This document shows positions 13,317 through 56,203 of a stretch of DNA of 56,203 bases, piece by piece; within the stretch, counting starts at the first letter, position 1; each line of letters starts with the position of its first letter. A program made the position numbers and the translations under genes. A model generated the notes under the pieces. The model saw only the letters and a program-made list of their open reading frames with translations, was not told where the DNA came from and made no database searches. The stretch comes from a virus (lineage: Duplodnaviria; Heunggongvirae; Uroviricota; Caudoviricetes): positions 1-56,203 of the IMG/VR virus record IMGVR_UViG_2778260992_000008; one strand, 5' to 3'.

Positions 13317-13318
13317 TC

Positions 13319-13496: not shown

Positions 13497-13504
13497 GGCT
13501 GAAT

Positions 13505-14114: not shown

Positions 14115-14133
14115 GATGATCCGTGGTGATTAT

Positions 14134-14367
14134 ATGGCTTTATTCAACCTGTCAGAGCCGCAATTCAACGCCGTAAAAACTGCCGCACGCGCGGCGCTTT
14201 CTGCCTGCAAAGCAGAGGTAGAAAGAAACGGATATAGCGATAAAGCCACGCGGCTGATATTAGATAAGCATTATCGCAAGGTCGCCCCGCTAATCAGTAT
14301 TGAGCGTTTTGTGTGGTTGGTGGGATATCTGAATAACCGCTGGGGAGCAGATCAGGATTATTTCTAA
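14134..14367 (+). CDS. hypothetical protein
   Basis: ATG 14134 with RBS GGTGA (alternative ATG 14116); inside track ORF 14020-14367. Confidence 0.4.
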   Translation: MALFNLSEPQFNAVKTAARAALSACKAEVERNGYSDKATRLILDKHYRKVAPLISIERFVWLVGYLNNRWGADQDYF

Positions 14368-14376
14368 GGGGGCGTA

Positions 14377-15408: not shown

Positions 15409-15892
15409 CAGGTTATTAGCCTGCGTTTATGTCGCCGTTTTCGTGATCATCAATCTTATTGTTAACCATTGCGGCCCGTGGGTAATTCCGATCACCACGG
15501 TAGCCGCCGTGTGTGTCAATATGATGATCCGTGACTTCCTGTTATATGACGGCGGCCTGAAATGGTCGGCTACCACATGCGCCATAGCTGGCGCGATCAC
15601 GGTGCTGATAAATTACGATGCCGGAATGGTGGCGATTGCGTCATTCGTCGCGGTTGTTTCCGGTGCGCTTATTTCTGGCGGTGTTTACCGGGTATTACCT
15701 GGTGACTTTGATTCTAAACGCTGGCCTGCAAATATAGCGTCCGCCATTGGTGATGCGTTAATTTTCCCCACGCTATCGTTTATGGCGTTTATGCCTGAAA
15801 TATCAGCTATGCAATTCATCTCAAAAATGGCGGCGGTAACGGTGATAACTATCATCATGCGCCGCTATTTCACGTTTGAGGGTAGGGAATGA
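15389..15892 (+). CDS. polytopic membrane protein, YhhQ/VUT-like (possible queuosine-precursor transporter)
   Basis: Several hydrophobic helices; resemblance to YhhQ-family segments judged by eye only. Confidence 0.4.
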   Translation: MKRVVIDRLLACVYVAVFVIINLIVNHCGPWVIPITTVAAVCVNMMIRDFLLYDGGLKWSATTCAIAGAITVLINYDAGMVAIASFVAVVSGALISGGVYRVLPGDFDSKRWPANIASAIGDALIFPTLSFMAFMPEISAMQFISKMAAVTVITIIMRRYFTFEGRE

Positions 15893-16677
15893 GCAGGGCT
15901 AAACATTGGTTAAATAAACAGCTTAGAAATTGGGTGGTGTGGTCGCTGTACGACGGCAGCGGGTACGCTGTTAAAGATTGGGCGGACGCTGGTTATAAAT
16001 GTTATTGCTTTAACTATGACGGCGCTAATCACGGCGATTATGACGGGGTAAAAATAATTCATCCAAATATTGAATATGTCAACGTCTGGATTGATAGCCA
16101 TTTCCTGGTAATGTTCTCCCCTGAATTGTCTGTATATCCAGATCCTGACATTATCCTGGGCTTTCCTCCGTGTGATGATCTTGCTGTGTCCGGCGCTCGT
16201 TGGTTCGCTGATAAGCGGAAGAAAGATCCTTACTTTCAGCAGAAAGCAGCGTACAACGCAAAACTGGTAGAAACGCTGGCGAGTATGTATAACGTCCCGT
16301 GGATGGTGGAAAATCCTGTGGGCGCACTGTCAACGTTATGGCGTAAACCTGATTTTATTTTCAATCCGTGCGCTTACGGTGGCTACCTGCCGGAAGATGA
16401 CAAGCATCCTGCTTTCCCGGAATACATCGCTGCCCGTGACGCCTACACGAAGAAAACTTGTATTTGGTGTGGAAATGGATTTAAGCAGCCGCTATTCCGG
16501 CCTGTATCGATGCCGGATGAATGGGAAGACAGTAAACAGCACGCTAAGTTAGGAGGAAAATCGAAACGCACTAAGATGATCCGCTCACTAACGCCGCGCG
16601 GCTTTGCCCGTGCTGTATTCCTGGCTAACGACCGGGCTATCACGCGGACGACGCTTAACCGTGTTTTACCGGATTGA
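15889..16677 (+). CDS. DNA C5-cytosine methyltransferase-like protein with atypical motif IV
   Basis: Motif I-like LYDGSGY; motif IV-like GFPPCDD (canonical PCQ); motif VI-like MVENPVG; only 262 aa. Confidence 0.45.
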   Translation: MSRAKHWLNKQLRNWVVWSLYDGSGYAVKDWADAGYKCYCFNYDGANHGDYDGVKIIHPNIEYVNVWIDSHFLVMFSPELSVYPDPDIILGFPPCDDLAVSGARWFADKRKKDPYFQQKAAYNAKLVETLASMYNVPWMVENPVGALSTLWRKPDFIFNPCAYGGYLPEDDKHPAFPEYIAARDAYTKKTCIWCGNGFKQPLFRPVSMPDEWEDSKQHAKLGGKSKRTKMIRSLTPRGFARAVFLANDRAITRTTLNRVLPD

Positions 16678-16699
16678 TGTTTACAAAATGGCGTCATTG

Positions 16700-16715
16700 T
16701 GTGATGAAGGTCACA
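16700..16715. promoter_or_regulatory. perfect CRP-type palindrome TGTGA-N6-TCACA
   Basis: TGTGATGAAGGTCACA, ~18 nt upstream of candidate -35 TTGTTC (16733-16738) and -10 TATACT (16755-16760). Confidence 0.4.
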
Positions 16716-16840
16716 TAATGGCGCTTTTTACTTTGTTCGGGTGTATCCATTTTGTATACTGCAATCAAACGAAATGCTCTTTAAAAATCCGGCCCCGCTG
16801 AAATGCGGAAACACATCACCTAACAGAATGAGATCAAATT

Positions 16841-17017
16841 ATGAACGATGACAGGTATGCGTGGCATGACGACTACGAGCGCGAATGCGTAATGCGGGCA
16901 ATGTGCAATTTGTGTAACCCCGACAAAGGAGACTGTAACGAGTGCAACAAATGCGTAGATCATTGGCTAAGGGCCGGAGCCGCCGCAAAGCCGAACGAAA
17001 TAGAAAATCGAAAATAA
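16841..17017 (+). CDS. small Cys-rich protein, NinF-like by position
   Basis: 58 aa with eight Cys (CNLCNPDKGDCNECNKC); immediately upstream of ninG; weak RBS. Confidence 0.35.
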   Translation: MNDDRYAWHDDYERECVMRAMCNLCNPDKGDCNECNKCVDHWLRAGAAAKPNEIENRK

Positions 17018-17031
17018 TTGGGGTGATCTTT

Positions 17032-17646
17032 ATGCAAAATCCCAAAAAACCCATAAGACGCCGTTGCAAGTGCTGCGGCGTTTTTTTTGAGCCTAAATAT
17101 CATAATCAAACGTGGTGCAGCGATGAATGTCTGGAAGAACTGAAGTTTGACCAGCTATGCCGCGACCGTGAAAAGGCTATGAAGGCGATGGAACGGAAGA
17201 AACGCCGCGATAGCCAGCGTGATGAACGCAACAGGAAGCGGAAACAGTTAAATCCGCGCAGTTATTGGTTAAAGCAGGCGCAAAACGTGTTTAACGCATA
17301 TATTCGCGAACGTGACGCAGGACAGCCGTGTATATCTTGCGGGACTTATTATTACGAACAATGCGGAATCGATGCGGGACACTGGCGCACAGTAGCGGCA
17401 GCCGGACACCTTCGCTTTAACGAGGATAACGTAAACCTACAATGCCGACATTGCAATCAGGTATTAGACGGCAATGTTGAGTTATACAGAATAAATTTAA
17501 TAAAAAAAATAGGATTAGAAAGGGTTGAGGCATTAGAAAATAATAACGAGACTCACAAATGGACGATCGAAGAATGCAAAGAAATAATAAATATATATCA
17601 GCGTAAATTAGACACATTAAGGAAGGAGAGAGCGCAATGCGCATGA
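17032..17646 (+). CDS. ninG: NinG/Rap-family recombination protein
   Basis: WLKQAQNVFNAYIRERD...CISCG...GH...LRFNEDNVNLQCRHCN...GN match lambda NinG; start 17032 with RBS GGGGTGA. Confidence 0.75.
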   Translation: MQNPKKPIRRRCKCCGVFFEPKYHNQTWCSDECLEELKFDQLCRDREKAMKAMERKKRRDSQRDERNRKRKQLNPRSYWLKQAQNVFNAYIRERDAGQPCISCGTYYYEQCGIDAGHWRTVAAAGHLRFNEDNVNLQCRHCNQVLDGNVELYRINLIKKIGLERVEALENNNETHKWTIEECKEIINIYQRKLDTLRKERAQCA

Positions 17647-17661
17647 TTGGGAGTGTATTGC

Positions 17662-18138
17662 ATGATGAATTGGCACGAATGGTTTTGTTACGATGGTATT
17701 AACCTGATATGGAAAAAGTCACGCGGTAGAATGAAAGCAGGGAGTATTGCTGGGTGTCCAAATGATACTGGTCGCATACGCGTTAGGCTTTTTGGTAGAT
17801 GGTATAAAGCGCACCGTATTATATGGGAAATGCACAACGGCCCTATCCCGGAAGGATACGAGATAGACCATTTAGATCATGACCCTAGCAATAACAGGCT
17901 TAATAATTTTAGATTGGTATTAGGTAAGGAGAACGCGAAGAATAGACCAAAAAATAAAAATAATACCAGCGGGTATACTGGTATCTCATGGGACAAAGGA
18001 AGGGGTAAATGGTCGGTAACGATAATGGTTAATTATAAAACCATTCATCTAGGTAGATTTGATAATTTAGAGGACGCAATAAAGGCAAGACAAGAAGCTG
18101 AAATTAAATACGGTTTTCATCCAAATCACGGTAAGTAA
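17662..18138 (+). CDS. HNH endonuclease with AP2 DNA-binding domain
   Basis: HRIIWEMHNGPIPEGYEIDHLDHDPSNNRLNN then GYTGISWDKGRGKWSV...HLGRFDNLEDAIKARQEAE; AT-rich insertion between ninG and rusA. Confidence 0.75.
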   Translation: MMNWHEWFCYDGINLIWKKSRGRMKAGSIAGCPNDTGRIRVRLFGRWYKAHRIIWEMHNGPIPEGYEIDHLDHDPSNNRLNNFRLVLGKENAKNRPKNKNNTSGYTGISWDKGRGKWSVTIMVNYKTIHLGRFDNLEDAIKARQEAEIKYGFHPNHGK

Positions 18139-18151
18139 GGAGAAAGGTAGC

Positions 18152-18571
18152 ATGAATGAATATTCTTTTAGTCTGCCTTACCCGCCGTCGAATAACCGAT
18201 ATTACCGACATTCACGCGGTTTTCACTATATCAGCAAGGTTGGAAAAGAATACAGGGAACAGGTAAGAGACATCATCGAGCTATTAAATTTAAATATTAA
18301 CCTACCTTGCCGACTGGCAATTGCCATTTACGCCGCGCCGCCGGATAACCGGATCAGAGATCTGGACAATATCCCTAAATGCCTTTTTGACAGCCTTACT
18401 TATGCCGGATTCTGGAAGGATGACGGGCAAATCGACTCAATAAAAATTGTTCGCTGCCGGAAGGTAAAAGGCGGACGCTTGTTTATTAAGATACGCGAGC
18501 GCGGCGACCTGCTACCGGATATTGACGAATACGCGACGAATATGTGGGGTGACAATGAAAAACGAAATTAA
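18152..18571 (+). CDS. rusA: RusA-family Holliday junction resolvase
   Basis: PPSNNRYY...RDLDNIPKCLFDSLTYAGFWKDDGQI typical of RusA. Confidence 0.75.
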   Translation: MNEYSFSLPYPPSNNRYYRHSRGFHYISKVGKEYREQVRDIIELLNLNINLPCRLAIAIYAAPPDNRIRDLDNIPKCLFDSLTYAGFWKDDGQIDSIKIVRCRKVKGGRLFIKIRERGDLLPDIDEYATNMWGDNEKRN

Positions 18572-18737
18572 AGATCTGCAAATTGATATTCAGCGTGATG
18601 AGCATGATTTAGAAACTGTCAGACAAATCCAGGCTTTTCACATGCGCGAATTGCTCGCATTAAAAGAGCTTGAGAGAAAGTTAGTCCAGGCTATTTCTGA
18701 TCGTAAACAACTGGCGGCGCGTTACGGGGGTAAATAA
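18555..18737 (+). CDS. hypothetical coiled-coil protein (60 aa)
   Basis: ATG 18555 with RBS GGGGTGA; inside track ORF 18522-18737. Confidence 0.4.
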   Translation: MKNEIKDLQIDIQRDEHDLETVRQIQAFHMRELLALKELERKLVQAISDRKQLAARYGGK

Positions 18738-19459
18738 TGAATTTAGAATCCATTCTAAAATTCCACTTCCCCAAATCGCCGCGATTATCAGACGAAAGCC
18801 GGGGCACGTCACCGGATGCGCTTAATACAACGGATGCGCTAACCGCTGCTGGTATGGCGCAATCGCGCGTAGAGCTTGGATATAGCGCTTTTTTAGGAAA
18901 GATGGAACTATCGCAAGCCGAAAAACACAGGGCCGTAGTTTTGCTTACAGAGCGTTTAAGAGCTATGGCAAAAGATTACGAATACGTGATGGAATTAAAT
19001 GAAGAACAACGCAATGATCTTATTATTCTTGTTGCCGTTTTCGCGTTTCGGGATTATTGCCAAAGCGCCGCGACGGAAAAAACTTGTATGGAGTGCGGCG
19101 GATATAAATTTACGTTTGACGACTACGGAGAAAAACACCTTTGCAAAAAATGCAAGGGGCATGGGAAAGTTCGCAATCATTGTAAACAATGCAAGGGGCG
19201 TGGCGAAGTACCGGATAAAGCAGCCAGCGAAGCGGCGGAAATGCCAGTTTTCAAAACGTGCCAGCACTGCGGCGGGCGCGGGTACTCGCGTTTCCCGGTA
19301 GATCTTGTCCGCCAGGCGGTTAATCAGCTTGTTTTCCCGGTAAGCCGATCAACCTGGTGGAAAAAATACCGGGTTTTCTATGAAGACGCCATAGCGGAGC
19401 TATTCAAAGAAGAGGCCCGCGCGGAAAGTGAAATCAAACGAGTGACACGGGGTGATTAA
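18737..19459 (+). CDS. DnaJ-type zinc-finger protein (CxxCxGxG x4), possible late regulator
   Basis: CMECGGYK, CKKCKGHG, CKQCKGRG, CQHCGGRG; downstream of nin/rusA where lambdoid phages often place Q. Confidence 0.4.
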   Translation: MNLESILKFHFPKSPRLSDESRGTSPDALNTTDALTAAGMAQSRVELGYSAFLGKMELSQAEKHRAVVLLTERLRAMAKDYEYVMELNEEQRNDLIILVAVFAFRDYCQSAATEKTCMECGGYKFTFDDYGEKHLCKKCKGHGKVRNHCKQCKGRGEVPDKAASEAAEMPVFKTCQHCGGRGYSRFPVDLVRQAVNQLVFPVSRSTWWKKYRVFYEDAIAELFKEEARAESEIKRVTRGD

Positions 19460-19659
19460 TGGATAAGCTGGAAATAAACGATCAGTTTGTCGTTCTCTTG
19501 TTTGAAGATAAAACAGGCGGCGCATGGTGTAAGAAAGTCACTGGTGCGGAAGCGCGTTTAATATTGGGTATGGCAAGCGCGTTAAATGAAGGCGAATTGC
19601 CTGCCATCCCTATTAAGCCTGTCAAAATTTACAAGCGGGGTGACGATGATGAAGCCTAA
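19459..19659 (+). CDS. hypothetical protein
   Basis: 66-aa ORF, ATGA-type junction with upstream gene. Confidence 0.35.
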   Translation: MDKLEINDQFVVLLFEDKTGGAWCKKVTGAEARLILGMASALNEGELPAIPIKPVKIYKRGDDDEA

Positions 19660-19918
19660 ATTAAAAGAACATCTATTTGCAAAGCTGGTTAATGACCTGA
19701 CATTATCCGCGCGGTTGTGCCGTGATACACAACAATTAAGGGCGTGGATAGCAAGGGATTTAAAAAAATATATTGAGCCTGGCGGGCCAGGTGGCGAAAT
19801 CACGATGGACGAAGCCATCAAGCGCCGGACGGCTGAATGGTCAGTGAGTAACACCGGATTAACCGGATACATTGAAGGATATAACGACTGTTTACAGGAT
19901 CATAATGATGACAAATAA
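19646..19918 (+). CDS. hypothetical protein
   Basis: ATG 19646 with RBS GGGGTGA; inside track ORF 19586-19918. Confidence 0.4.
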   Translation: MMKPKLKEHLFAKLVNDLTLSARLCRDTQQLRAWIARDLKKYIEPGGPGGEITMDEAIKRRTAEWSVSNTGLTGYIEGYNDCLQDHNDDK

Positions 19919-20207
19919 ACACTTACATTTAAATTTAAAAGGGGAATACTTTCACGCTATCCGGGCGGGAAAGAAAGTGGAGGAATACAGGCTTTATAAT
20001 GACTACTGGCGGAAACGCCTGGAAGGGCGGGAATACACAAGATTAATCATCAAATGGGGATACCCGGCTAACGACGAGAAGGAACGAATACTTATTCTTC
20101 CTTATATGGGATACACAATCAAGACAATTCAGCATCCTTTATTTGGCGACGATCCTGTTAAAGTTTTTGCTATCAAATGCGATATTTATTGGCAATATAG
20201 GTTTTAG
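19905..20207 (+). CDS. hypothetical protein
   Basis: ATG 19905 with RBS AGGA; inside track ORF 19872-20207. Confidence 0.35.
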   Translation: MMTNKHLHLNLKGEYFHAIRAGKKVEEYRLYNDYWRKRLEGREYTRLIIKWGYPANDEKERILILPYMGYTIKTIQHPLFGDDPVKVFAIKCDIYWQYRF

Positions 20208-46030: not shown

Positions 46031-49000
46031 ATGGGCGGCGGTGGTGGTAAAACAAAAACACCTGAATTATTGAATGATAACTTATATCATAAACAGTTTT
46101 ATCGCGTGCTGGATATATTAAGCGAAGGACCGATTTATGGTCCCGTTAATACGACCGCGCCGTTAAACTGCGTGATGTTGAATGATACACCTATAACCGA
46201 TGAAGTGGGAAATACCAGTATTCCGGGCGTTAGTGTCGCCTGGCGGCCTGGTACGCTCGACCAATCCCCGATTAATGGTTTTAATGCCATCGAATCGACG
46301 GTAATGGTTAACGCAAAAGTAACGCATGACACCCCACTGGTTAGGACGGTATCAGACCCGAACGTGACGCGCGTCCGGTTAAATATTGGCGTGGACTCAC
46401 TAGTGGAAAGCGACAGTGAATCTAATCAGCACAATACAACGGTTATAATGGCGATCGACGTTAAGCCTTCGTCATCGTCTACCTGGTCGGCGGTTAAAGC
46501 CGTTTCTATCACTGGTAAAATTAGCGGCGAATATCTGGAATCACACATCATTGACGCGCCAAGTGAAAGCCCGTTTGATATTCGCGTCCGGCGCGTCACC
46601 GCTGACAGTGTAAGCGACTTATTGCAGAATGATACCCGCTGGAATAGCTACAGTGAGATCATCGACGATAACCTGGCTTACCCTTACACAGCCGTAGCAG
46701 GTGCGGTAATTGACCATGACCAGTACGCTGACACACCCACCCGCACTTATCATCTGCGCGGCCTGATTGTTGATGTACCGGATAACTACGACCCGGAAAC
46801 GCGTACTTATTCCGGTTTATGGCTGGGTGGCTTTAAAAAGGCGTACACCAATAACCCCGCGTGGTTGTTCCGCTACCTGATCAAAAACGACCGTTTCGGC
46901 CTTGCTCGACAGGCTGGTTATATTGATGTTGACGATGGCGCTTTATACACGCTTTCACAATATTGCGATCAGTTGGTTGATGATGGCTACGGCGGAAAAG
47001 AGCCACGCCTTACCCTTAACGCCTATATCACCGAACAAAAAAGCGCCCGTGATTTACTGGATAACATCGCCGGAATGTTCCGTGGCATCGCATTATGGGA
47101 CGGGCAGCGCCTTACCGTGATGATTGATGCGCCGCAAGACCCGATTGCAACCATCACAAACGCAAACGTCGTTGATGGCGCTTTCACCCGTTCAAGCATC
47201 GCCCGTGCCGAACGTTACAACGCGGTTGTTGTGTCCTGGACCGACCCGGAAAACGGCTGGGAGCAAACAAAAGAGTATGTATCAGATGATGAACTGATCG
47301 CCCGTGACGGTTACAACGAAACCACGCTGGAGGCGTTCGGATGCACATCACGCGGGCAAGCATACCGCGCGGGCAAATGGCTGATAGAAACAGCAAAACG
47401 CGAGCCGTCAAAATTCACGTTTAAAATGGCCCGTGACGCGATTCACTTTACGCCAGGGGATATCATCGAGATCCTCGACAATAACCGCGCGGGCGCTCGT
47501 TTAGGCGGTCGTATCGTGGCGAACAATGGCAAGGTGATAACGGTCGATAAGGTTGATTCAGAATACATTACCGCAGGTGACACCATCAGCTTACTCGATA
47601 GCGATGGCAAATTTAAAAAGCACCAGATTACCGGGGTGAATGGAAATGAGATCACCTTAGCGGCGGCCCCGGCATGGATACGCAACGGGACCGTTTTCGC
47701 TGTATCCACTGAAGCAGCAAAACCCGTTTTGTGTCGGATCACCAGTGTAGCCGAAACTGAAAATAACAGCGTGTACACCATCGAGGCCGCGCAGCACGAC
47801 CCAAATAAACAGGCGGTAGTCGATGAAGGCACAATCTTCGAAATCAGCAGCGACACGCTAAATCACTTCCGCGTGCCGAACATCGAAAATTTGAAAGTGG
47901 TAAACGTTGGATCAGAGACAGTTCAATGCCGCGCCACCTGGGAGACACAGACAACAACGCGTAGCCTGACTTTTGAGATCCGCATATACAACGCAGACGG
48001 GCGCGTGGTGGCAAGCTACGAAACGCAGAATTACCGATATGAATTTTTCGGCCTTGAATGCGGGAATTACTCGTTGGGCGTGCGCGGGCGTAATGATGCT
48101 GGCATGAAGGGTGCGGAAACGCTGGTAGATCTCATCGTTGGAGCGCCAGCCGCGCCGACTGGTGTTAATTGGGTGCCAGGTGTTTTCCAGGCAACCGTCT
48201 ACCCGATCAACAGCACCACACTAACGACCGATACCACTTACGAATTTTATTATGCCGGGGAAAACCAGATCACTGACTTCAGCCAGGTAACAACATCAGC
48301 GCAATTCACCGGGCGCGGGTATCAATGGACCTTCGGCGGGATGGCAACGGGGCACACGTATTACGTTTACGTGCGCACAAAAAACGCTTTCGGTGTATCT
48401 GACTTTATCGAAGCCAGCGGTAAACCTTCCGAAAACTTCGAAGAAATCACGGATGCCGTGCTGAATGAAGTTATGGAAGGCGAACAATTCCAGAACATGA
48501 TCAAGGACTCCATAGACGAAGTAACAGGCGGTTTAATGGGTGACGTGGAAGAACTGAAACAAACCACGGTAGACATTGACCAGGCTGTTACCGATCTGAA
48601 GGAATCAACCGCCGATCTGGAAGAACGTGTAAAAAACAATGAGGACGGAATTGGGGAGCACGAAAGCCAGATTAACGAAATCAGCGTAGAATTGACGGAG
48701 CAGGAAAACGAGCTAATGCAGACCCGCGCCAGCCTGCAAAACGCAGCCATTGCGCTTATGAATAACTCATTAGCCAACACCAGCACCCGCACCACGTTAA
48801 CGGCGCAATATAAGAGCCAGAAAGCGGAAACGAAAGCAGAAATTGAGCGCATTGATTCAGTTATTGCTACAGAGAAGGAGGCGACCGCGCAGGCGCTTAC
48901 CACGCTTGAAAGCAAGGTGAATGACGAAATCAGCGCCAACTTAACCGAAATGCAGCAGACGATCGCAACGCTGGAGGAATCGACAAGCCAATCAATCGAA

Positions 49001-50005
49001 AAACTGGAAAGCCAGGTAAACGAGGATATCCAGGCCAGCTTAACGGAGATTAACCAGACAATCACCAATCTGGAATCATCCACGGCTGAATCCATTAATA
49101 ACCTTGAAGCGAAAGTAGACGGCGATATCTCATCAGCGATCAGCAGTATGGATCAGGCATTAGCTACGCATGAACAAGCCAACGCTACACAGTTTGCCAG
49201 CCTGCAATCTCAGATTGATGAGAATGAAGCGGCAATCACTGAAACTAATCAGACGATTGCAACCAATGAGCAAGCGACCGCGCAGAAGCTGGAGCAATTG
49301 CAAGCCCAAATCGATGATGATGTGTCGGCAGCCATTACCGAAATGCAAACGGCACTTGCTACCCACGAAAAGGCCAACGCTACACAGTTTGCGGAGATTA
49401 GCGCATCACTGGAAGCAAACGAAGCAACGATCACGGAGTGGGGCGAAGCGTTTACATCTTACAAGGAATCAACCGCCACGCAGATCGAAAGCATCACGGC
49501 CTCAATCGACGGGCAATCGGTATCAATCGAAGAAAACAAAACCGCAATTGCCGGTATTGAAACAGATATGTCGGCAACGTGGAGCATTAAGATCGCTACT
49601 GACAATAACGGCATGAAGTATGCGTCCGGGATTTCGTTAGGTATGACCGGATCAGGAAGTAGCACACAATCACAATGCATTTTCCTTGTTGACCGCTTTG
49701 TGCTAATGACGGCGGCAAACGGCACATATACGACACCTTTCTATGTTACAAACGGTGCAATGTATGTGCGCGAAGCGTTTATTAAAGACGCATCAATCAC
49801 TAACGCGAAAATTGGATCTTACATCCAGTCCAATAACTATGTTTCCGGTAGCACTGGCTGGAAGCTGGATAAATCCGGTACATTCGAAAACTATGGCGCG
49901 GTGAGTGGTGAAGGCGCAATGAAATTAACAAATACCACTATTTCAGTAAAAGACGGTAACGGCGTTTTACGCGTCCAAATTGGGCGGATTACCGGATCAT
50001 GGTAG
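46031..50005 (+). CDS. host specificity / central tail fibre protein J
   Basis: 1324 aa; conserved gpJ N-terminal region; quasi-repetitive coiled-coil region ~48500-49500. Confidence 0.85.
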   Translation: MGGGGGKTKTPELLNDNLYHKQFYRVLDILSEGPIYGPVNTTAPLNCVMLNDTPITDEVGNTSIPGVSVAWRPGTLDQSPINGFNAIESTVMVNAKVTHDTPLVRTVSDPNVTRVRLNIGVDSLVESDSESNQHNTTVIMAIDVKPSSSSTWSAVKAVSITGKISGEYLESHIIDAPSESPFDIRVRRVTADSVSDLLQNDTRWNSYSEIIDDNLAYPYTAVAGAVIDHDQYADTPTRTYHLRGLIVDVPDNYDPETRTYSGLWLGGFKKAYTNNPAWLFRYLIKNDRFGLARQAGYIDVDDGALYTLSQYCDQLVDDGYGGKEPRLTLNAYITEQKSARDLLDNIAGMFRGIALWDGQRLTVMIDAPQDPIATITNANVVDGAFTRSSIARAERYNAVVVSWTDPENGWEQTKEYVSDDELIARDGYNETTLEAFGCTSRGQAYRAGKWLIETAKREPSKFTFKMARDAIHFTPGDIIEILDNNRAGARLGGRIVANNGKVITVDKVDSEYITAGDTISLLDSDGKFKKHQITGVNGNEITLAAAPAWIRNGTVFAVSTEAAKPVLCRITSVAETENNSVYTIEAAQHDPNKQAVVDEGTIFEISSDTLNHFRVPNIENLKVVNVGSETVQCRATWETQTTTRSLTFEIRIYNADGRVVASYETQNYRYEFFGLECGNYSLGVRGRNDAGMKGAETLVDLIVGAPAAPTGVNWVPGVFQATVYPINSTTLTTDTTYEFYYAGENQITDFSQVTTSAQFTGRGYQWTFGGMATGHTYYVYVRTKNAFGVSDFIEASGKPSENFEEITDAVLNEVMEGEQFQNMIKDSIDEVTGGLMGDVEELKQTTVDIDQAVTDLKESTADLEERVKNNEDGIGEHESQINEISVELTEQENELMQTRASLQNAAIALMNNSLANTSTRTTLTAQYKSQKAETKAEIERIDSVIATEKEATAQALTTLESKVNDEISANLTEMQQTIATLEESTSQSIEKLESQVNEDIQASLTEINQTITNLESSTAESINNLEAKVDGDISSAISSMDQALATHEQANATQFASLQSQIDENEAAITETNQTIATNEQATAQKLEQLQAQIDDDVSAAITEMQTALATHEKANATQFAEISASLEANEATITEWGEAFTSYKESTATQIESITASIDGQSVSIEENKTAIAGIETDMSATWSIKIATDNNGMKYASGISLGMTGSGSSTQSQCIFLVDRFVLMTAANGTYTTPFYVTNGAMYVREAFIKDASITNAKIGSYIQSNNYVSGSTGWKLDKSGTFENYGAVSGEGAMKLTNTTISVKDGNGVLRVQIGRITGSW

Positions 50006-50011
50006 AATTAA

Positions 50012-50040
50012 GGGGCCGACTTGTTCGGCCTCAGTTTTAT
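50012..50040 (+). terminator. weak hairpin terminator after J
   Basis: GGCCGA-CTTGT-TCGGCC followed by TCAGTTTTA. Confidence 0.35.
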
Positions 50041-50055
50041 TAAGGAGGTGCAATT

Positions 50056-50367
50056 ATGGCTACTTTCGGCGTAGCAACCTGGGACGCCAGCGGCAAAGCT
50101 AACAACTACGGGATCAAACCTTCAGTCGTGGTTGGTTATATTTCCCTATCCTCCGGGCAAGTATCCGGCACGTATACTTTTACAGTGCCGACCGGATGTA
50201 AATTATCCTACGGTATGACACTTGATTATGGCACAACGTCAACGACGCGCAGAAAGATCACTATTTCGGGTGGTACTGTTTCCATTTCCTCAGCAGGAAA
50301 CACGGTAGGCGCTAATATATGGCCCGCGTCACAGTGTGAAATTGTTATATTTGCGGAGGTGGCTTAA
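50056..50367 (+). CDS. hypothetical tail-associated protein (MATFG paralog 1)
   Basis: 103 aa; RBS AAGGAGGTG; begins MATFGVATWDASG. Confidence 0.45.
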   Translation: MATFGVATWDASGKANNYGIKPSVVVGYISLSSGQVSGTYTFTVPTGCKLSYGMTLDYGTTSTTRRKITISGGTVSISSAGNTVGANIWPASQCEIVIFAEVA

Positions 50368-50960
50368 TGGCAACCTTCGGAGCTTATTTGAGATTAAGTA
50401 ACGGGAATATTTTCGTTACACCGGAAGCGACGCCGCTTTGCTTATATAAACGGGTGGCATTAACATCATCGAATCAAACCGTCGCCGTGCCACCCGGAAA
50501 ACCCGTGATGGTATTTGTGAAAAGCACTACCGCCGCCGCTGTATTAGCTTATAGAAATAGTTCATCGACTTTACTGATCGGTGCTGGTTCGGGGTATGCG
50601 TATATTTTCAGTATTTTCCCGCCATCGCTGCCGAAATGGGGAATGGCTATCTGGAACGCTTCCGGGGAACTGGTGCTAACTAATGAATCAAGAATATTAA
50701 CAGACCTTGTAACCGTGGGGACAGCAGGATCAAGTGGCGGGATTTATATAGACCAGACGTTATCCGGTTCTTATGCTATTTGCCCCCAATTGTTAGGGGC
50801 GCTCGTTGGACAGGGTAGTGCCTCCATTTATGCGGCGGCTTATTACAACGGAAGCACGACCAGAATTTACGGTATCCAGGCGGGTAGCGTATATGCACCA
50901 ACTGGCTATATCAACCACGGGAACGCTATCACCGCCATTAAAACCGACGCCTATGATTAA
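50367..50960 (+). CDS. hypothetical tail-associated protein (MATFG paralog 2)
   Basis: 197 aa; ATGA overlap; begins MATFGAYL and shares WNASGE with paralog 1. Confidence 0.45.
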   Translation: MATFGAYLRLSNGNIFVTPEATPLCLYKRVALTSSNQTVAVPPGKPVMVFVKSTTAAAVLAYRNSSSTLLIGAGSGYAYIFSIFPPSLPKWGMAIWNASGELVLTNESRILTDLVTVGTAGSSGGIYIDQTLSGSYAICPQLLGALVGQGSASIYAAAYYNGSTTRIYGIQAGSVYAPTGYINHGNAITAIKTDAYD

Positions 50961-51196
50961 TTCAGTTCCGGGCAATCCGTTTTCTTGAAGTGGTCAACGC
51001 TTACCCATTGAAAATTAAACGGATACCCGGCCTTAACCATTTTATGACCGCCAACATCCGCGACACCGAAGACTGCAACCGCATATTCATTACCGCCAGT
51101 TTGATAAATTGCCGTGCATTCACGTTTAGGCATGTCAGCGCAACCAACCAGACCAGCAACCATTGCAACGATAGCGATATTTTTTAAGCCTTTCAT
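50957..51196 (-). CDS. Cor-like lipoprotein (candidate superinfection exclusion)
   Basis: Signal plus lipobox MKGLKNIAIVAMVAGLVGC; ATG 51196 with RBS GGAGGG; between J and side tail fibre, where cor sits in lambdoid phages. Confidence 0.45.
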   Translation of the reverse strand: MKGLKNIAIVAMVAGLVGCADMPKRECTAIYQTGGNEYAVAVFGVADVGGHKMVKAGYPFNFQWVSVDHFKKTDCPELN

Positions 51197-51355
51197 TGTC
51201 TTACCCTCCGTTGTTTCGTTGGTTGTAGTATCCACAAACTGTATTTTCTCAACATTGATATAAATCAACAAATACATTTTGTATAAACCAAAAATGTAAC
51301 ATAGATCACAAAATGGTAGAATTATTCCGTTAATTAACATAATGGAGTCATTGCA

Positions 51356-54300
51356 ATGATCTACACCATTGGAAATATTGCCGTATCCGGTAACACGCTG
51401 ACCGGGACGGGCACAAATTTTAAAGCACCCTTATCTATGATCCGCGTAGGGTGCACCGTTATTGTAAAAAGCGACCCTATCCAGATCTTTTCCATCACTG
51501 AAATTGTCAGTGAAACGGAATTATCTGTGACCCCGGCAGCATCACCGGATATTCCGGCGGGTACTGCTTACAGTATTTTATTGTGTGATTCGATCTCAGT
51601 TGATGGGCTGGCGCAAGACGTAGCGGAAGCATTACGGTATTTTACCGGGCAAGAGTCAGAGATCTATGCTGCCGTTGAATACTGGAAAAATTATGGTGAT
51701 GCCGCGCAGGTGGAAGCATTGTTAACCGCTATCCAGGCGGAAACAGCGCAATCAACCGCCAACGCCGCAGCCACCGCCGCAGACGTTGAAACAACCGCCG
51801 CAGCACTGAATGAAGCTGTAGCAGCAAAAGACGCAGCGGAAGCAGCAGCCGCCAACGCAGAGCAGCAGGCCGCCACCGCCACCACGCAGGCGACTACCGC
51901 TACCGAACAAGCTACCGCCGCAGCGGAAGCAGCAGCAGAAGCAAAAGATCATCGTGGCACGGCTTACATCTGGATGAATGAGGCTATCAGCCAGGCGACA
52001 ACGGCTACCGAGCAAGCGACCATCGCTACCGAAAAAGCAACGGCAGCGACCGATGCCGCCACCGCCGCACAGGAAGCACTGACGCTTACCCAGGAAGCCC
52101 GCGACACTGCCACCCAACAGGCAACCATCGCTACCGAACAGGCCACTATCGCTACTGACGCCGCCAACGCCGCCGAAACAAGCGCCGCCAACGTCGCAGC
52201 AGACGAACAAGAAATTGCAGCCAATGCAGCCGCAGCAGCAGAAGCAGCCACCGCCGCCGCATTATCAGAAGCTAATGCGAAAACTTACGCGGAGCAAGCA
52301 AAAGCACTATCAGAAGACTCATTATCCCTTATCGGCTTGGGCGCTGATCGCCGTGATTGGCCCGATTGCACGACTGATCCATCAGCCTATATTGGCTTTG
52401 TTCGTCTGGAAGAAGCCACCGCGACGGGTTTCCCGTCTATCGCTTCCGGTGAAGTCTACCTGGTAGGCTGGCTGGCACGCGGTGACGGCCTGTTCATCAA
52501 TGGTTGTTTCGTAGGTACGAATACTCGCTCGCTCTACACCTACATGTATAACAATGCCGATGGGACTTACGGCTGGACCCGTCACGCCCGGAAGGACGAA
52601 GTAAGTCGCTTTGTTCAGCGCGGCGGTGAATCGGAGGTGTACAGTGGCGATGGTCGTAAATATTTTTTCATAAACAACATGGACGGGACTTATCATTGGG
52701 GGGCTTACGATACAAGTACGGGGCAAACCGTTCCGTTACAAGTATCTTGCGGCGGTACAGGTGGGCGTAATGCCGGACAAGCCCGCACCAGCTTACAGGT
52801 GATGTACGAACAAAAAACTGACCTCGGAGATACGGATCTAAACACCCTGACTGGTGAGTATTCCGGTTTCTATCGCCAGAAAACCAACGCAAAAGCCACC
52901 ACTGAACATAATTACCCGTGCAACTATGCGGGCGCGCTTGTCGTGCTGGGGAATAGTGCTAATAGTGATTCGGGATGTACGCAAATTTATTACCCCTATA
53001 ACTATAGTGATTTGTATTATACCCGTTGGTGTAATGGTTCTGATCTTAATTGGTCCGACTGGTGCGAGCATCGCGGCTACTGGACAATCCTTAATAACAT
53101 TGGCTTAGGTGCATCACCTCGCCATTGTAATGATCTCACGGGTGATCCATTCTCTTATATTGGCTTCTTACGCCTGACTCCGGCGGGGACCACTGGCTAT
53201 CCTGACGTCGCAACAGAAGCGGGCGAGGGCGCTTTGAGTGGTTACATCTGCCGTAACGATGGTGAACCTTCATACTCCGGCTTATTTGTCGGTGCTACGA
53301 CTGGCGCGGCCTACACCTACCGCTATAGCTTAGGTGGTGGCGTTCAATGGCAAAGAATTCCGCGAGCTAATGACTTAAGCCGTTTTGTGCAAAACGACTC
53401 AACAACGCGCATGTATGGCCCGACAGGCGATCGCTTCTTTGAGATCCACACCAACGGTAATTGGGGTGTTTACAGTACCGCTGATTCCGCGTGGATACCG
53501 TTAGGTATTGCACAGGGCGGCACAGGTGCAACAGACGCAGCCACGGCCCGCACTAATTTAGGGTTAGGCACTACAAACGATGTGCAGCATCAGAATCTGA
53601 CGCTGACCCGTACAAGCGACGGGACAGATGGTTGGGTAGCTGGTGGTATGACCAAATCTAAACTTTTAGGTACTGACGGCACTGTACGCGCCGAGGGCTG
53701 GATGTATGCAGAATGCAACGCAAGTAGCCCAACGCAAATGACCTTTGCCATCCATTCAGCGACCGAAGGCTACAAATATTTGTCTTTCAATACGAAAGGC
53801 CAGATCCTGGCTGAAACGGCTATTTTCCGTTCAACCTACGTTAACCCGTTGGTTATTGAAAGCACTACCCCGACAGTCAGCTTTAACGAAACCGACCGCC
53901 CGGATGGCGCACCTTATTACAACTTTATTGCCGATGGCGGCAACTGGCGTATTCAGAAAAACGGCGACGGGTATGATGGTGAATATGTAATAAGTTATGA
54001 CTATAAACTCAACGAGATTCAAGTACCTAACTTGCTTGCTACGGCTATCCAGAAACCTTTAAACCTCGATCAGACCAAAACAAATCTGCAAATCCCTTAC
54101 ACCGGGGTGAGCCATTGGACCGACTACAACGCCCCGGAAGGCGCGGAAGCAACCAAATACTATCCGGTTATTATTTCTCAACCGTCATACTTCAACGGTG
54201 ATTTCTTTGTCGAAGTCGCTATGCGCACACGCTCAATACAGGGCGCTGAAGAACCTAACTGTAACGCCATTCACCTATGGATGCGTGATGGTGGCTGGTC

Positions 54301-56203
54301 TGATATGGGTCAAGGTTGTTTCGGTCATTATTGCGCTTACGCTTCCAACGAAGTAGCTATCCTTTGTGTGCGCGGTACTGACAAAGGCCAATATCCACAC
54401 AATGCAATCTATGTTCGCGGTGACGCTTTCCCTATTCGTCTTGCCGCCACGGTTGGCTGCACTGTAACAATACCTACAGCAGACTGGAAACCTTCAACCG
54501 CAAGCGATAGCCCGACTTATAAATGGGGTATCACTGATTCCGCCGATGGCCTTGATCTCGATACCTATGGTATCGCGGGTAACTTGCTTGATTTCACGCA
54601 TGGTAAAAGCGGTTTTTATTCTGACAAGCAATTCCGTCATGCTAATGGCGATGGCTATCTTTATAACCACATGACGGTTGGCGCTCTCAATATAACATCC
54701 ACGGAAGCGTTTAACTTCCGTGGCACGTCTAACTTTTACGGGACCGTTAATTGTGGTTATGGCTATTATTCTGTAAGCGATGATGTAACGAAATGCGCAT
54801 ACTATTCACGCCTGATTGACTCATCAGGGAACATTCTCGGACAAGGTGAATTCCGCGTAGGAGAATACGCCGCGCAAATTGTTGTACGCGATCTCACAGA
54901 TACCGCCGCGCATAAATTCTTTAACTTCAACAAAGACGGCACATTCCATGCGCCTAACGGTTGCGTTACCCACACTGGCGCGGACTGGAGCGGGCACACA
55001 TCCGATAACATAAACAAATTTAAGCCTATTGCTGGCAGCACTAACGGGCCATCAGATCCGACCGTTTTTGGTGGTTTCCATGTTAGTTTCAGCGGTAACT
55101 ATGCTACCCAATTTGCTGGGCGTTTATCCCAATTTTGGGCCAGAAGCATTGAAGCGGGAGTAGATCAAGGCTGGAAACGCTTATTGACTACAGATGACTT
55201 AAGCGCATCCACTGATTTAACAGTCAACAGCCTGACCACTACAACAGCCGTTAGATCTGGTGGTGGCGATCTGCATATTCTCGGTGATACCGCATACCGT
55301 GAAGCGATGAATTGCGGCCTTACTGGTTATGACTCCACCGGACAGAATATGAGCTGGTATCTCGGCACATATAAGAGCCAGGAATATAAAGTTTACTTCG
55401 AAGACTATTTAGGTTCCGAAGGTATCGAGCTTAACGGTGATAATGGTTCCGTTAAATTGTACACTGGCGGCCTGGCGACAGGAACACCAGCAGAGCTTAC
55501 GCTTTATGATAACCAGTGTTTATCAACTGTAAACTATACCATCAAACCCGCTTCGTCCTCATGGGATAGATATTTCACAATGGAAAATAGCGGCACAGCT
55601 TACCATAACGGCACTTATCAATTTTGGGGTAATGCTGTTTATGATGGTAGTAACATTACAGGTGATCGCTATAGTGTCTTTGAATGGAAGTTAGACACTG
55701 GTTATTTAGCCTATTTGGAACGTTCAGCCGATGGTTCTCAGAAGCTACAGGTTAACGGCGGCATACATTGCACAGCAGTTACTCAGTCCTCCGACCGTGA
55801 TTTGAAGGACAATATCGAGGTTATACCGGACGCCACCGCCGCGATCCGCAAGATGAACGGCTATACCTACACTCTGAAAGAAAACGGCCTACCTTACGCC
55901 GGGATTATCGCACAGGAAGCAATGGAGGCCATCCCGGAAGCGGTAGGATCTTTCATGTGGGAAGGTGAAGAACTGGAAGGCCCGACACAGGACGGTCGCG
56001 AACTACGCGAAACGGCACGTTACCTCAATGTTGACTATGCCGCCGTGACTGGTTTACTTGTTCAGGTGGCACGCGAAACAGATGATCGCGTTACCGCGCT
56101 GGAAGAAGAAAACGCCAGCTTACGCGCGAACATTGCTGTTATGGATGAACGCATCACAAAACTTGAAGCACTGGTCCAGCAGTTGACCGGAAGCGAAGAA
56201 TAA
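51356..56203 (+). CDS. side tail fibre protein with C-terminal intramolecular chaperone (S74-like) domain
   Basis: 1615 aa; Ala/Thr-rich repeats ~51700-52300; duplicated ~150-aa domain; C-terminal SSDRDLKDNIEVIPDATAAIRKMNGYTYTL; stop at window end. Confidence 0.75.
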   Translation: MIYTIGNIAVSGNTLTGTGTNFKAPLSMIRVGCTVIVKSDPIQIFSITEIVSETELSVTPAASPDIPAGTAYSILLCDSISVDGLAQDVAEALRYFTGQESEIYAAVEYWKNYGDAAQVEALLTAIQAETAQSTANAAATAADVETTAAALNEAVAAKDAAEAAAANAEQQAATATTQATTATEQATAAAEAAAEAKDHRGTAYIWMNEAISQATTATEQATIATEKATAATDAATAAQEALTLTQEARDTATQQATIATEQATIATDAANAAETSAANVAADEQEIAANAAAAAEAATAAALSEANAKTYAEQAKALSEDSLSLIGLGADRRDWPDCTTDPSAYIGFVRLEEATATGFPSIASGEVYLVGWLARGDGLFINGCFVGTNTRSLYTYMYNNADGTYGWTRHARKDEVSRFVQRGGESEVYSGDGRKYFFINNMDGTYHWGAYDTSTGQTVPLQVSCGGTGGRNAGQARTSLQVMYEQKTDLGDTDLNTLTGEYSGFYRQKTNAKATTEHNYPCNYAGALVVLGNSANSDSGCTQIYYPYNYSDLYYTRWCNGSDLNWSDWCEHRGYWTILNNIGLGASPRHCNDLTGDPFSYIGFLRLTPAGTTGYPDVATEAGEGALSGYICRNDGEPSYSGLFVGATTGAAYTYRYSLGGGVQWQRIPRANDLSRFVQNDSTTRMYGPTGDRFFEIHTNGNWGVYSTADSAWIPLGIAQGGTGATDAATARTNLGLGTTNDVQHQNLTLTRTSDGTDGWVAGGMTKSKLLGTDGTVRAEGWMYAECNASSPTQMTFAIHSATEGYKYLSFNTKGQILAETAIFRSTYVNPLVIESTTPTVSFNETDRPDGAPYYNFIADGGNWRIQKNGDGYDGEYVISYDYKLNEIQVPNLLATAIQKPLNLDQTKTNLQIPYTGVSHWTDYNAPEGAEATKYYPVIISQPSYFNGDFFVEVAMRTRSIQGAEEPNCNAIHLWMRDGGWSDMGQGCFGHYCAYASNEVAILCVRGTDKGQYPHNAIYVRGDAFPIRLAATVGCTVTIPTADWKPSTASDSPTYKWGITDSADGLDLDTYGIAGNLLDFTHGKSGFYSDKQFRHANGDGYLYNHMTVGALNITSTEAFNFRGTSNFYGTVNCGYGYYSVSDDVTKCAYYSRLIDSSGNILGQGEFRVGEYAAQIVVRDLTDTAAHKFFNFNKDGTFHAPNGCVTHTGADWSGHTSDNINKFKPIAGSTNGPSDPTVFGGFHVSFSGNYATQFAGRLSQFWARSIEAGVDQGWKRLLTTDDLSASTDLTVNSLTTTTAVRSGGGDLHILGDTAYREAMNCGLTGYDSTGQNMSWYLGTYKSQEYKVYFEDYLGSEGIELNGDNGSVKLYTGGLATGTPAELTLYDNQCLSTVNYTIKPASSSWDRYFTMENSGTAYHNGTYQFWGNAVYDGSNITGDRYSVFEWKLDTGYLAYLERSADGSQKLQVNGGIHCTAVTQSSDRDLKDNIEVIPDATAAIRKMNGYTYTLKENGLPYAGIIAQEAMEAIPEAVGSFMWEGEELEGPTQDGRELRETARYLNVDYAAVTGLLVQVARETDDRVTALEEENASLRANIAVMDERITKLEALVQQLTGSEE

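What the first reader, a model, noticed from the sequence alone, without database searches (positions are those of the whole stretch)
50957..51196. Cor-like lipoprotein on the opposite strand between J and the side tail fibre
A 79-aa lipoprotein gene lies antisense between the J-associated genes and the tail fibre, the position where lambdoid phages carry cor, which blocks receptor-mediated infection. The call rests on position and lipobox, not on sequence homology.
Basis: partly seen in the sequence, partly recalled or inferred. Interest (0 to 1): 0.45.

Follow-up and report, generated by a model that had tools for sequence, protein, structure and literature searches.

The report
Ordinary Cor phage-exclusion lipoprotein gene

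Summary
Window 50957-51196 (- strand) encodes a 79-aa lipoprotein (lipobox LVGC, Cys19, Ala at +2, GGAGGG Shine-Dalgarno sequence 7 nt upstream). It lies convergent to the genes after J and divergent from the side tail fibre gene.

- PHROG 1119 "Cor superinfection exclusion protein", E 5e-24, full length.
- NCBIfam equivalog NF047972 "phage exclusion lipoprotein Cor", 55 bits against a cutoff of 31.
- 34-35% identity to phi80, N15 and HK022 Cor (E about 1e-15) and 51% to T1 Cor.
- 97% identity to an E. coli prophage gene that RefSeq already names cor.

The two upstream genes are homologues of N15 gp22/gp23. Together with the last ~75 codons of J and cor, they form a ~1.45 kb cassette that the literature ties to FhuA-dependent phages. 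Here the cassette sits in an mEp021-like (mEpimmI) temperate phage backbone. Relatives carry unrelated exclusion lipoproteins matched to OmpA or LamB in the same slot.

An AlphaFold model's best PDB match is T5 Llp bound to FhuA, though the match is weak.

[quoted passage not shown] The exclusion phenotype, promoter and target are inferred, not shown. Interest is low.

The parts
50957..51196 (-). cor: 79-aa phage exclusion lipoprotein. The signal peptide is codons 1-18 (51143-51196), the lipidated Cys19 is at 51140-51142, the mature 60-aa domain is 50960-51139 and the stop is 50957-50959.
   Evidence: ORF and sequence. PHROG 1119 E 5e-24. NCBIfam NF047972 55.1 bits against cutoff 31. Alignments to phi80, N15, HK022 and T1 Cor. 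10 of 12 differences from the E. coli prophage copy are synonymous.
51204..51209 (-). Shine-Dalgarno sequence GGAGGG, 7 nt upstream of the cor ATG.
   Evidence: Read from the sequence. Identical in the E. coli MFDS1019527 prophage copy.
50367..50960 (+). 197-aa homologue of N15 gp23 / phi80 gp23 ('membrane associated protein', PHROG 425). It is part of the receptor-binding locus linked to FhuA use. Its stop overlaps the cor stop by 4 nt, convergently.
   Evidence: PHROG 425 E 2.7e-50. Full-length identity of 42-48% to T1, phi80, N15 and HK022, and 68.5% to SLUR29. Literature link to FhuA: PMC13164509, PMC8594841, bioRxiv 10.64898/2026.04.02.716166.
50056..50367 (+). 103-aa homologue of N15 gp22 / phi80 gp22 ('outer membrane protein', PHROG 557). 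It is the first gene of the extended cor cassette.
   Evidence: PHROG 557 E 9.9e-29. Identity of 42-53% to T1, N15, phi80 and HK022.
49775..50005 (+). Last ~75 codons of the tail tip protein J (whole gene 46031-50005). This tip travels with the cassette.
   Evidence: Nucleotide similarity to mEp021 and mEp010 J ends at ~49812-49815, and similarity to T1, HK022, phi80, N15 and SLUR29 begins at ~49775-49796. The last 100 aa are 60-64% identical to those FhuA-cassette phages, 45% to mEp021 and 20% to mEp010. Pfam Phage_Tail_Tip covers aa 1166-1302.
50012..50032 (.). GC-rich hairpin just after the J stop, terminator-like on both strands. It is the only terminator-like site downstream of cor on the - strand, about 930 nt away.
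   Evidence: The count does not exceed the shuffled expectation, so this is weak evidence.
51254..51355 (.). Divergent control region between cor and the side tail fibre gene. It is conserved in mEpimmI phages whatever lipoprotein gene they carry. It holds an extended -10-like TGG-TAGAAT (51314-51322, + strand) and repeated TACATTTTGT / ACAAAATG motifs. Only weak promoter candidates exist for cor.
   Evidence: Alignment with mEp021, mEp010 and the E. coli prophage. blastn boundaries. Inverted repeats. Lenient promoter scan. The consensus scan found no - strand promoter.
51356..56203 (+). Side tail fibre gene (1615 aa) with a C-terminal Peptidase_S74 chaperone domain. It is a neighbour of the cassette, not part of it.

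Best explanation
The gene encodes a Cor-family superinfection-exclusion lipoprotein.

Shown by sequence:
- It has a Sec/Lsp-type signal peptide with the lipobox LVGC and a non-Asp residue at +2.
- The mature 60-residue domain carries the family's invariant Cys27, Cys75, Gly57 and Pro59 and the AGYPF motif.
- It passes the curated Cor equivalog model.
- It is the last gene of the three-gene cassette (N15 gp22-like, gp23-like, cor) directly after J.

Inferred:
- After processing and lipidation, the protein is anchored in the inner leaflet of the outer membrane.
- It binds the periplasmic face or plug of the TonB-dependent ferrichrome transporter FhuA, as T5 Llp does in PDB 8A60.
- It locks FhuA in a state that the phage's own receptor-binding proteins, and those of other FhuA-dependent phages such as T1, T5 and phi80, cannot use. 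Lysogens and infected cells, and debris from lysed cells, then no longer adsorb these phages.
- The phage itself is predicted to use FhuA as its terminal receptor.
- The J tip, the two receptor-binding-locus genes and cor were acquired as one ~1.45 kb cassette. It went into an mEpimmI backbone, at the slot where relatives carry OmpA- or LamB-matched exclusion lipoproteins.
For: Family membership:
- PHROG 1119 E 5.1e-24, full length.
- NCBIfam NF047972 55.1 bits against cutoff 31.
- 34-35% identity to the experimentally studied phi80, N15 and HK022 Cor, and 51% to T1 Cor.
- A profile search finds 324 clusters, many named 'phage exclusion lipoprotein Cor'.
- Invariant C19, C27, G57, P59 and C75 in a 91-sequence alignment.
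- 97% identity to an E. coli prophage gene that PGAP annotates as cor, in the same layout.

FhuA link:
- The same J / gp22-like / gp23-like / cor order occurs in T1, HK022, N15 and phi80.
- The flanking proteins are 42-53% identical to those of these phages.
- The J tip is 60-64% identical to theirs, against 20-45% for LamB or OmpA relatives.
- BASEL phages JulesPiccard, GeorgBuechner and KarlBarth carry Cor homologues 47-59% identical to this one and are experimentally FhuA-dependent.
- The literature states that the extended cor cassette tracks FhuA use (PMC13164509; PMC8594841; bioRxiv 10.64898/2026.04.02.716166).

Mechanism:
- The AF2 model has mean pLDDT 81, with the mature part near 90.
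- Its best hit among 350,542 PDB chains is Llp in the FhuA-Llp crystal structure 8a60_B (TM 0.49/0.61, rmsd 3.1 A).
- Cor and Llp are reported to share a fold and a disulphide (PMC9586334; bioRxiv 10.64898/2026.03.26.714494).

Slot logic: mEp021 and mEp010 carry unrelated lipoproteins at the same antisense slot. These were shown to exclude phages that use the same receptor (PMC11893012).
Against: - No experiment exists on this allele.
- The Foldseek E-value for Llp is only 0.036, with Tudor/chromo-like small barrels close behind.
- No Pfam family matches, and no solved structure is found by sequence.
- No convincing sigma-70 promoter lies upstream of cor, and no terminator follows it. When and how strongly it is expressed is therefore unknown.
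- The molecular mechanism of Cor itself is described as not yet elucidated.
- Cor-like proteins also occur in phages that use BtuB, so family membership alone does not fix the target.
Confidence: 0.85

Rival explanations
1. It is a Cor/Llp-family lipoprotein that jams a different outer-membrane transporter, such as BtuB or another TonB-dependent receptor. The phage would then use that receptor rather than FhuA.
For: Cor-like proteins are reported in Markadamsvirinae and in one Tempevirinae group that use BtuB (PMC13164509). The best match of the 197-aa neighbour (68.5%) is SLUR29, a Tempevirinae phage whose receptor I could not establish. This allele is only ~35% identical to the Cor proteins tested experimentally.
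Against: - The BtuB-linked cases lack one or both accompanying membrane-protein genes. Here both are present and are 42-53% identical over their full length to those of T1, phi80, N15 and HK022.
- That exceeds the >30% identity and >99% coverage reported to define the FhuA-specific family.
- The J tip also matches the FhuA phages.
- The closest receptor-typed carriers of cor homologues are all FhuA-dependent.
Confidence: 0.08
2. It is a Cor homologue, but it excludes by a route other than direct Llp-like jamming of FhuA. It might act through other outer-membrane proteins, or at DNA entry after adsorption.
For: [quoted passage not shown] The 2026 Llp preprint says the Cor mechanism is not elucidated. 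The structural match to Llp here is weak statistically.
Against: Llp is nevertheless the top PDB hit. An AlphaFold3 model for a T1-like Cor docks it at the periplasmic face of FhuA with ipTM 0.84 (PMC13164509). The two cysteines shared with Llp are conserved.
Confidence: 0.05
3. The ORF is not a functional gene. It could be a chance ORF or a decaying remnant, or the real product could be the longer 127-aa ORF starting at 51340.
For: Many chance ORFs of similar size lie in this region. Some public gene calls use the 106- or 127-aa start. No clear promoter was found.
Against: - The full-length profile match has E 5e-24.
- The lipobox and both cysteines are intact.
- 10 of 12 substitutions against the E. 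coli copy are synonymous, whereas the upstream extension changes without codon-position bias.
- A strong Shine-Dalgarno sequence precedes the 79-aa start.
- No Cor homologue carries the extension.
Confidence: 0.02

Closest known systems
Cor of phages phi80, N15, HK022 and mEp167 (lambdoid, FhuA-dependent; NCBIfam NF047972, PHROG 1119)
   Same: - Same family by curated profile.
- Same size (77-79 aa), lipobox, two conserved cysteines and AGYPF(N/S)(W/F)xWV motif.
- Same place after J and the gp22/gp23 homologues and before the side tail fibre gene.
   Different: Only 34-35% identical. It lacks the 3-residue insertion before Cys27. It is transcribed antisense to the tail genes, whereas in these phages cor is co-directional.
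Cor of T1 and other Drexlerviridae / Dhillonvirus phages (e.g. egaa, SLUR29, KarlBarth, GeorgBuechner)
   Same: - Closest subgroup, at 51-63% identity.
- Same convergent orientation against the gp23-like gene.
- Same three-gene cassette.
- Those with typed receptors use FhuA.
   Different: Those phages are virulent, with ~43-51 kb genomes. Here the cassette sits in a ~56 kb temperate mEpimmI-type genome that has a CI/LexA-like repressor. The stop codons overlap by 4 nt here, against a ~20-30 nt gap in T1 and SLUR29.
Llp of phage T5 (PDB 8A60, FhuA-Llp complex)
   Same: Small outer-membrane lipoprotein with a small beta fold. It is the best PDB match of the model (TM 0.49/0.61, 24% identity over 59 columns). 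It blocks FhuA from the periplasmic side (PMC9586334).
   Different: No significant sequence similarity. It is encoded next to pb5 in a different genome context. The structural E-value is marginal (0.036).
Lpp021 (type A) and Lpp010 (type C) exclusion lipoproteins of mEpimmI phages mEp021 and mEp010
   Same: Same genomic slot, which is antisense, between J and the tail fibre gene and downstream of the same conserved intergenic region. Same logic of a lipoprotein that excludes phages using the carrier's own receptor (PMC11893012).
   Different: Unrelated in sequence beyond the signal peptide (forced alignment 21-29%). They are matched to OmpA and LamB rather than FhuA, and are not accompanied by the gp22/gp23-like genes.
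Rtp45 of phage Rtp (LptD-directed exclusion lipoprotein)
   Same: Analogous arrangement, with a receptor-binding locus after J followed by a cognate exclusion protein that binds the periplasmic face of the receptor (PMC12685063).
   Different: Different protein family and a different target (LptDE). Not compared by sequence here.

Membership tests
Cor phage exclusion lipoprotein (NCBIfam NF047972 / PHROG 1119) | Scores above the curated cutoff of the family's profile model, over the full length. | tested here: met
   NF047972 equivalog: 55.1 bits against cutoff 31, residues 7-75 on profile positions 5-76 of 78. PHROG 1119: E 5.1e-24, residues 5-76 on positions 3-75 of 78.
Cor phage exclusion lipoprotein (NCBIfam NF047972 / PHROG 1119) | Significant pairwise similarity to experimentally studied Cor proteins (phi80, N15, HK022). 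| tested here: met
   BLASTP 34-35% identity, E 3e-15, 2e-16 and 8e-16.
Cor phage exclusion lipoprotein (NCBIfam NF047972 / PHROG 1119) | Small (~70-90 aa) precursor with a signal peptide, a lipobox and a +2 residue compatible with outer-membrane sorting. | tested here: met
   79 aa, MKGLKNIAIVAMVAG-LVGC-AD. The lipobox fits [LVI][ASTVI][GAS]C and +2 is Ala. Cys19 is invariant in 91 homologues. Actual lipidation was not tested.
Cor phage exclusion lipoprotein (NCBIfam NF047972 / PHROG 1119) | Two conserved cysteines in the mature domain (the disulphide shared with Llp) and the AGYPF motif. | tested here: met
   C27, C75, G57 and P59 are invariant; A56, Y58 and F60 are nearly invariant. The disulphide is reported for Llp and Cor in PMC9586334. 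The Cys-Cys distance in my model was not measured.
Cor phage exclusion lipoprotein (NCBIfam NF047972 / PHROG 1119) | Genomic linkage to the N15 gp22/gp23-like genes directly downstream of the J tail tip gene. | tested here: met
   Window order is J, 103 aa (PHROG 557), 197 aa (PHROG 425), cor. T1, HK022, N15, phi80, SLUR29 and an E. coli prophage have the same order.
Cor phage exclusion lipoprotein (NCBIfam NF047972 / PHROG 1119) | Expression excludes FhuA-dependent phages and inactivates FhuA functions. | not testable with these tools
   Needs plating and ferrichrome, albomycin or colicin M assays. Only indirect support is available: receptor-typed phages with the closest homologues use FhuA.
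Llp/Cor structural superfamily (T5 Llp, PDB 8A60) | Llp-like small beta fold. | tested here: inconclusive
   The AF2 model has pLDDT 81. 8a60_B is the top Foldseek hit among 350,542 chains, but with E 0.036 and TM 0.49/0.61, and unrelated small barrels have similar scores.
mEpimmI Lpp exclusion lipoproteins, types A and C (PMC11893012) | Sequence similarity to Lpp021 or Lpp010. | tested here: not met
   Only the signal peptide and lipobox align, and the forced alignment gives 29% and 21%. The slot and the upstream region are shared. Whether the paper's untested types B or D correspond to Cor could not be read, because the figure is not held.

The most novel reading that the evidence does not exclude
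In the mEpimmI group of temperate gut coliphages, the segment from the last ~75 codons of J to just upstream of the lipoprotein gene (window ~49.8-51.25 kb) may act as a plug-in 'receptor plus matching exclusion' cassette. It is bounded by conserved sequence on both sides. It would be exchanged across the temperate/virulent divide, since the FhuA version here is closest to Drexlerviridae while sister phages carry OmpA or LamB versions. The shared divergent control region would then express whichever lipoprotein is plugged in. The published mEpimmI study lists four lipoprotein types but does not name any of them as Cor in its text.
Probability: 0.6. Interest if true: 0.3.

Novelty: new member of a known kind. 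Interest (0 to 1): 0.12.

Why it matters
It matters little beyond correct annotation.
- It identifies the gene as cor.
- It predicts that this phage uses FhuA and that its lysogens resist T1, T5 and phi80-type phages. They may also show impaired ferrichrome or albomycin uptake.
- It gives a clean example of a receptor-specificity and exclusion cassette shared between virulent T1-like phages and a temperate mEp021-like backbone. That is useful for receptor prediction from genomes and for choosing phages for therapy cocktails.
- It flags that public gene calls for this allele often start too far upstream (106 or 127 aa).

Tried and rejected
- Pfam gave no family for cor or for its two neighbours.
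- A sequence search of PDB chains gave only a chance hit at E 2.3.
- Megablast of the locus against phage genomes matched only the intergenic region, so protein-level searches were needed.
- The consensus promoter/terminator scan found no - strand promoter for cor and no terminator after it. A lenient scan gave only weak candidates: TTGTTG-17-TGA-GAAAAT ending at 51243, and TTGATT-19-TACAGT ending at 51238. I do not claim a promoter.
- I considered the 127-aa ORF from 51340 as the true gene and rejected it.
- I considered that the protein might belong to the mEpimmI Lpp types A or C and rejected that.
- I tried to learn from the mEpimmI paper's supplements whether one of its four lipoprotein types is Cor. 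The text files held do not say.
- The first single-sequence homologue search returned only 8 close relatives, so a profile search was needed to reach the wider family.

Full report
**1. Observation**

The - strand of window 50957-51196 carries an ATG-initiated ORF of 79 codons. Its product is MKGLKNIAIVAMVAGLVGC|ADMPKRECTAIYQTGGNEYAVAVFGVADVGGHKMVKAGYPFNFQWVSVDHFKKTDCPELN.
- It has a lysine-containing N-region, a hydrophobic core and the lipobox LVGC (Cys19).
- Ala at +2 is compatible with outer-membrane sorting by the established Lol rule.
- A GGAGGG Shine-Dalgarno sequence lies 7 nt upstream (51204-51209).

The gene lies between two small + strand genes that follow the 1324-aa tail tip gene J (46031-50005) and the 1615-aa side tail fibre gene (51356-56203). 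It is antisense to all of them. Its stop overlaps the stop of the upstream 197-aa gene by 4 nt.

An ORF of this size is not evidence by itself, because one search lists dozens of spurious ones. The case rests on homology and on the substitution pattern. Against the copy in E. coli MFDS1019527, 10 of 12 nucleotide differences in the CDS are synonymous.

The mechanical ORF list extends the frame to an ATG at 51340 (127 aa), and some public gene calls use 106 or 127 aa. I reject that extension for three reasons:
- It is absent from all other Cor proteins.
- Its differences from the E. coli copy show no codon-position bias.
- It would bury the signal peptide.

**2. What it is**

There is plenty.
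- PHROG 1119 'Cor superinfection exclusion protein' matches at E 5.1e-24 over residues 5-76.
- The NCBIfam equivalog model NF047972 'phage exclusion lipoprotein Cor' scores 55.1 bits against a cutoff of 31.
- Pfam has no model for the family.
- T1 Cor is 51% identical.
- The best phage hits, at 58-63%, are Drexlerviridae and Dhillonvirus phages, many annotated as superinfection exclusion proteins.
- A profile search of the large protein collection finds 324 clusters across Enterobacteriaceae, many named 'cor protein' or 'phage exclusion lipoprotein Cor'.
- In a 91-sequence alignment C19, C27, G57, P59 and C75 are invariant, and the AGYPF motif is nearly so.
- Four complete E. coli genomes carry the same locus. 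In the closest one (93.6% nt over the locus, 97% aa for cor), PGAP already names the gene cor, in the identical layout J / 103 aa / 197 aa / cor (antisense) / tail fibre.

**3. Context**

The two upstream genes are PHROG 557 and PHROG 425. These are the N15 gp22 and gp23 families.
- They are 42-53% identical over their full length to the corresponding genes of T1, phi80, N15 and HK022.
- In each of those phages they sit between J and cor.

The window as a whole is a temperate phage genome. It has a CI/LexA-like repressor, replication genes, Erf and NinG. It belongs to the mEp021-like 'mEpimmI' group, with ~81% nucleotide identity over about two thirds of 27000-51400.

blastn shows where that backbone similarity is interrupted:
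- Similarity to mEp021 and mEp010 stops inside J at ~49812-49815 and resumes at 51254-51272, in the intergenic region upstream of cor.
- The ~1.45 kb in between instead resembles the Drexlerviridae phage SLUR29 (64% nt across 49784-51146).
- At the J tip it also resembles T1, HK022, phi80 and N15.
- The last 100 residues of J are 60-64% identical to those phages, but 45% to mEp021 and 20% to mEp010.

In mEp021 and mEp010 the same antisense slot holds unrelated lipoproteins, Lpp021 and Lpp010. These were shown experimentally to exclude phages that use OmpA and LamB respectively (PMC11893012). So the slot is a receptor-matched exclusion slot, and the window carries the FhuA/Cor version.

**4. 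Mechanism**

The literature supports the following:
- Cor proteins exclude FhuA-dependent phages and functionally inactivate FhuA, although the molecular mechanism is called unresolved (bioRxiv 10.64898/2026.03.26.714494).
- T5 Llp, a distant relative sharing the disulphide, binds the periplasmic face and plug of FhuA. It makes extracellular loops 7 and 8 fold inward, which blocks the receptor-binding protein (PMC9586334).
- The extended cor cassette tracks FhuA use in T1, HK022, N15, ES18 and phi80 and in ten BASEL phages. An AlphaFold3 model docks a T1-like Cor at the periplasmic face of FhuA (PMC13164509).
- Loci downstream of gpJ encode the receptor-binding proteins together with cognate exclusion proteins (PMC8594841). 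A FhuA-specific family is defined by >30% identity and >99% coverage, and the GpJ tip co-varies with it (bioRxiv 10.64898/2026.04.02.716166).
- BASEL phages JulesPiccard, GeorgBuechner and KarlBarth are listed as FhuA-dependent. Their Cor homologues are 47-59% identical to this protein.

My AlphaFold2 model, built from a 91-sequence alignment, has mean pLDDT 81, with the mature domain near 90. It is a small five-stranded beta structure. Its best Foldseek hit among 350,542 PDB chains is 8a60_B, Llp in complex with FhuA (TM 0.49/0.61, rmsd 3.1 A, 24% identity). The E-value is only 0.036, and Tudor/chromo-like barrels follow closely. I count this as consistent, not decisive.

Shown:
- Family membership.
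- The lipoprotein signals.
- The cassette context.

Inferred:
- Lipidation and outer-membrane location.
- FhuA as the target.
- Llp-like periplasmic jamming.
- The exclusion phenotype.

**5. Expression**

Expression is the weakest point.
- The consensus scan finds no sigma-70 promoter on the - strand upstream of cor and no terminator after it. The only hairpin is the one just after J, at 50012-50032.
- A lenient scan gives only weak candidates.
- The intergenic stretch 51254-51355 is conserved among mEpimmI phages regardless of which lipoprotein gene follows. It holds an extended -10-like TGG-TAGAAT facing the tail fibre gene and repeated TACATTTTGT / ACAAAATG motifs. A shared control region is plausible but untested.

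**6. Comparison and novelty**

This is a divergent but clear member of the Cor family. It is closest to the T1/Drexlerviridae subgroup in both sequence and orientation.

Near-identical copies are already annotated as cor in RefSeq.

The only mildly new aspect is the backbone. The FhuA/Cor cassette sits in an mEpimmI phage, at the slot where sisters carry OmpA- or LamB-matched lipoproteins. The mEpimmI paper mentions four lipoprotein types but does not name Cor in its text.

**7. Verdict**

- Observation: confirmed.
- Interpretation: supported.
- Novelty: new member of a known kind.
- Interest: low (0.12).
- Confidence: about 0.97 that it is a Cor-family lipoprotein, and about 0.85 that it excludes via FhuA. 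The Llp-like jamming step is the least certain part.

Noticed in passing
window 51254-51355: The intergenic region between cor and the side tail fibre gene is conserved (about 75-90% nt) with mEp021, mEp010 and E. coli prophages, even though the adjacent lipoprotein genes are unrelated. It contains an extended -10-like TGG-TAGAAT (51314-51322, + strand) and three copies of an 8-10 nt motif TACATTTTGT / ACAAAATG (51273-51282, 51291-51298, 51308-51315). These could be regulator binding sites.
   Followed up: partly
window 51356-56203: The side tail fibre gene encodes 1615 aa. It has an Ala/Thr/Glu-rich N-terminal region and an internal duplication: residues ~313-505 and ~578-913 both match overlapping stretches (locus 6406-6996 and 6442-7455) of the mEp010 fibre gene. 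It has a C-terminal Peptidase_S74 intramolecular chaperone domain (aa 1479-1530). The window ends exactly at its stop codon, so the window may be a whole linear phage record or a contig.
   Followed up: partly
window 46031-50005: J is 1324 aa, with a long coiled-coil-like repeat region (roughly aa 900-1160; weak Apolipoprotein-type hits) between the conserved lambda-J-like N-terminal domains and the Phage_Tail_Tip domain. This region aligns poorly and repetitively with mEp021, mEp010 and the E. coli prophage J.
   Followed up: no
window 50957-50960: cor and the 197-aa gene converge and overlap by 4 nt at their stop codons, with no terminator between them. Transcription of either would run antisense into the other, so mutual interference between late tail transcription and cor expression is conceivable.
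   Followed up: no
window 51197-51340; proteins P0001, P0002, P0004: Public gene calls for near-identical copies start at upstream ATGs, giving 106- or 127-aa products that bury the signal peptide. These look like mis-annotated starts.
   Followed up: yes
L001 4797-5732 (mEp021 gp80) and L001 5732-5950 (gp81): In mEp021 the antisense slot holds two genes: the Lpp021 lipoprotein and a 311-aa protein annotated as a virion structural protein. The 'cassette' therefore differs in gene content as well as sequence among mEpimmI phages.
   Followed up: no
one search hit list (Klebsiella Webervirus-like phages): The 197-aa gp23-like protein has 111 Klebsiella phage homologues at ~32-34% identity, but the cor search found only one Klebsiella phage. 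The receptor-binding-locus family therefore seems to extend beyond cor-carrying phages.
   Followed up: no
window 7976-8623 and 1-20000: The early region encodes a CI/LexA-like repressor, a DnaB-like helicase, a replication initiator, Erf, a DNA methyltransferase and NinG. This is consistent with a complete temperate mEpimmI-type genome. No integrase was looked for.
   Followed up: partly
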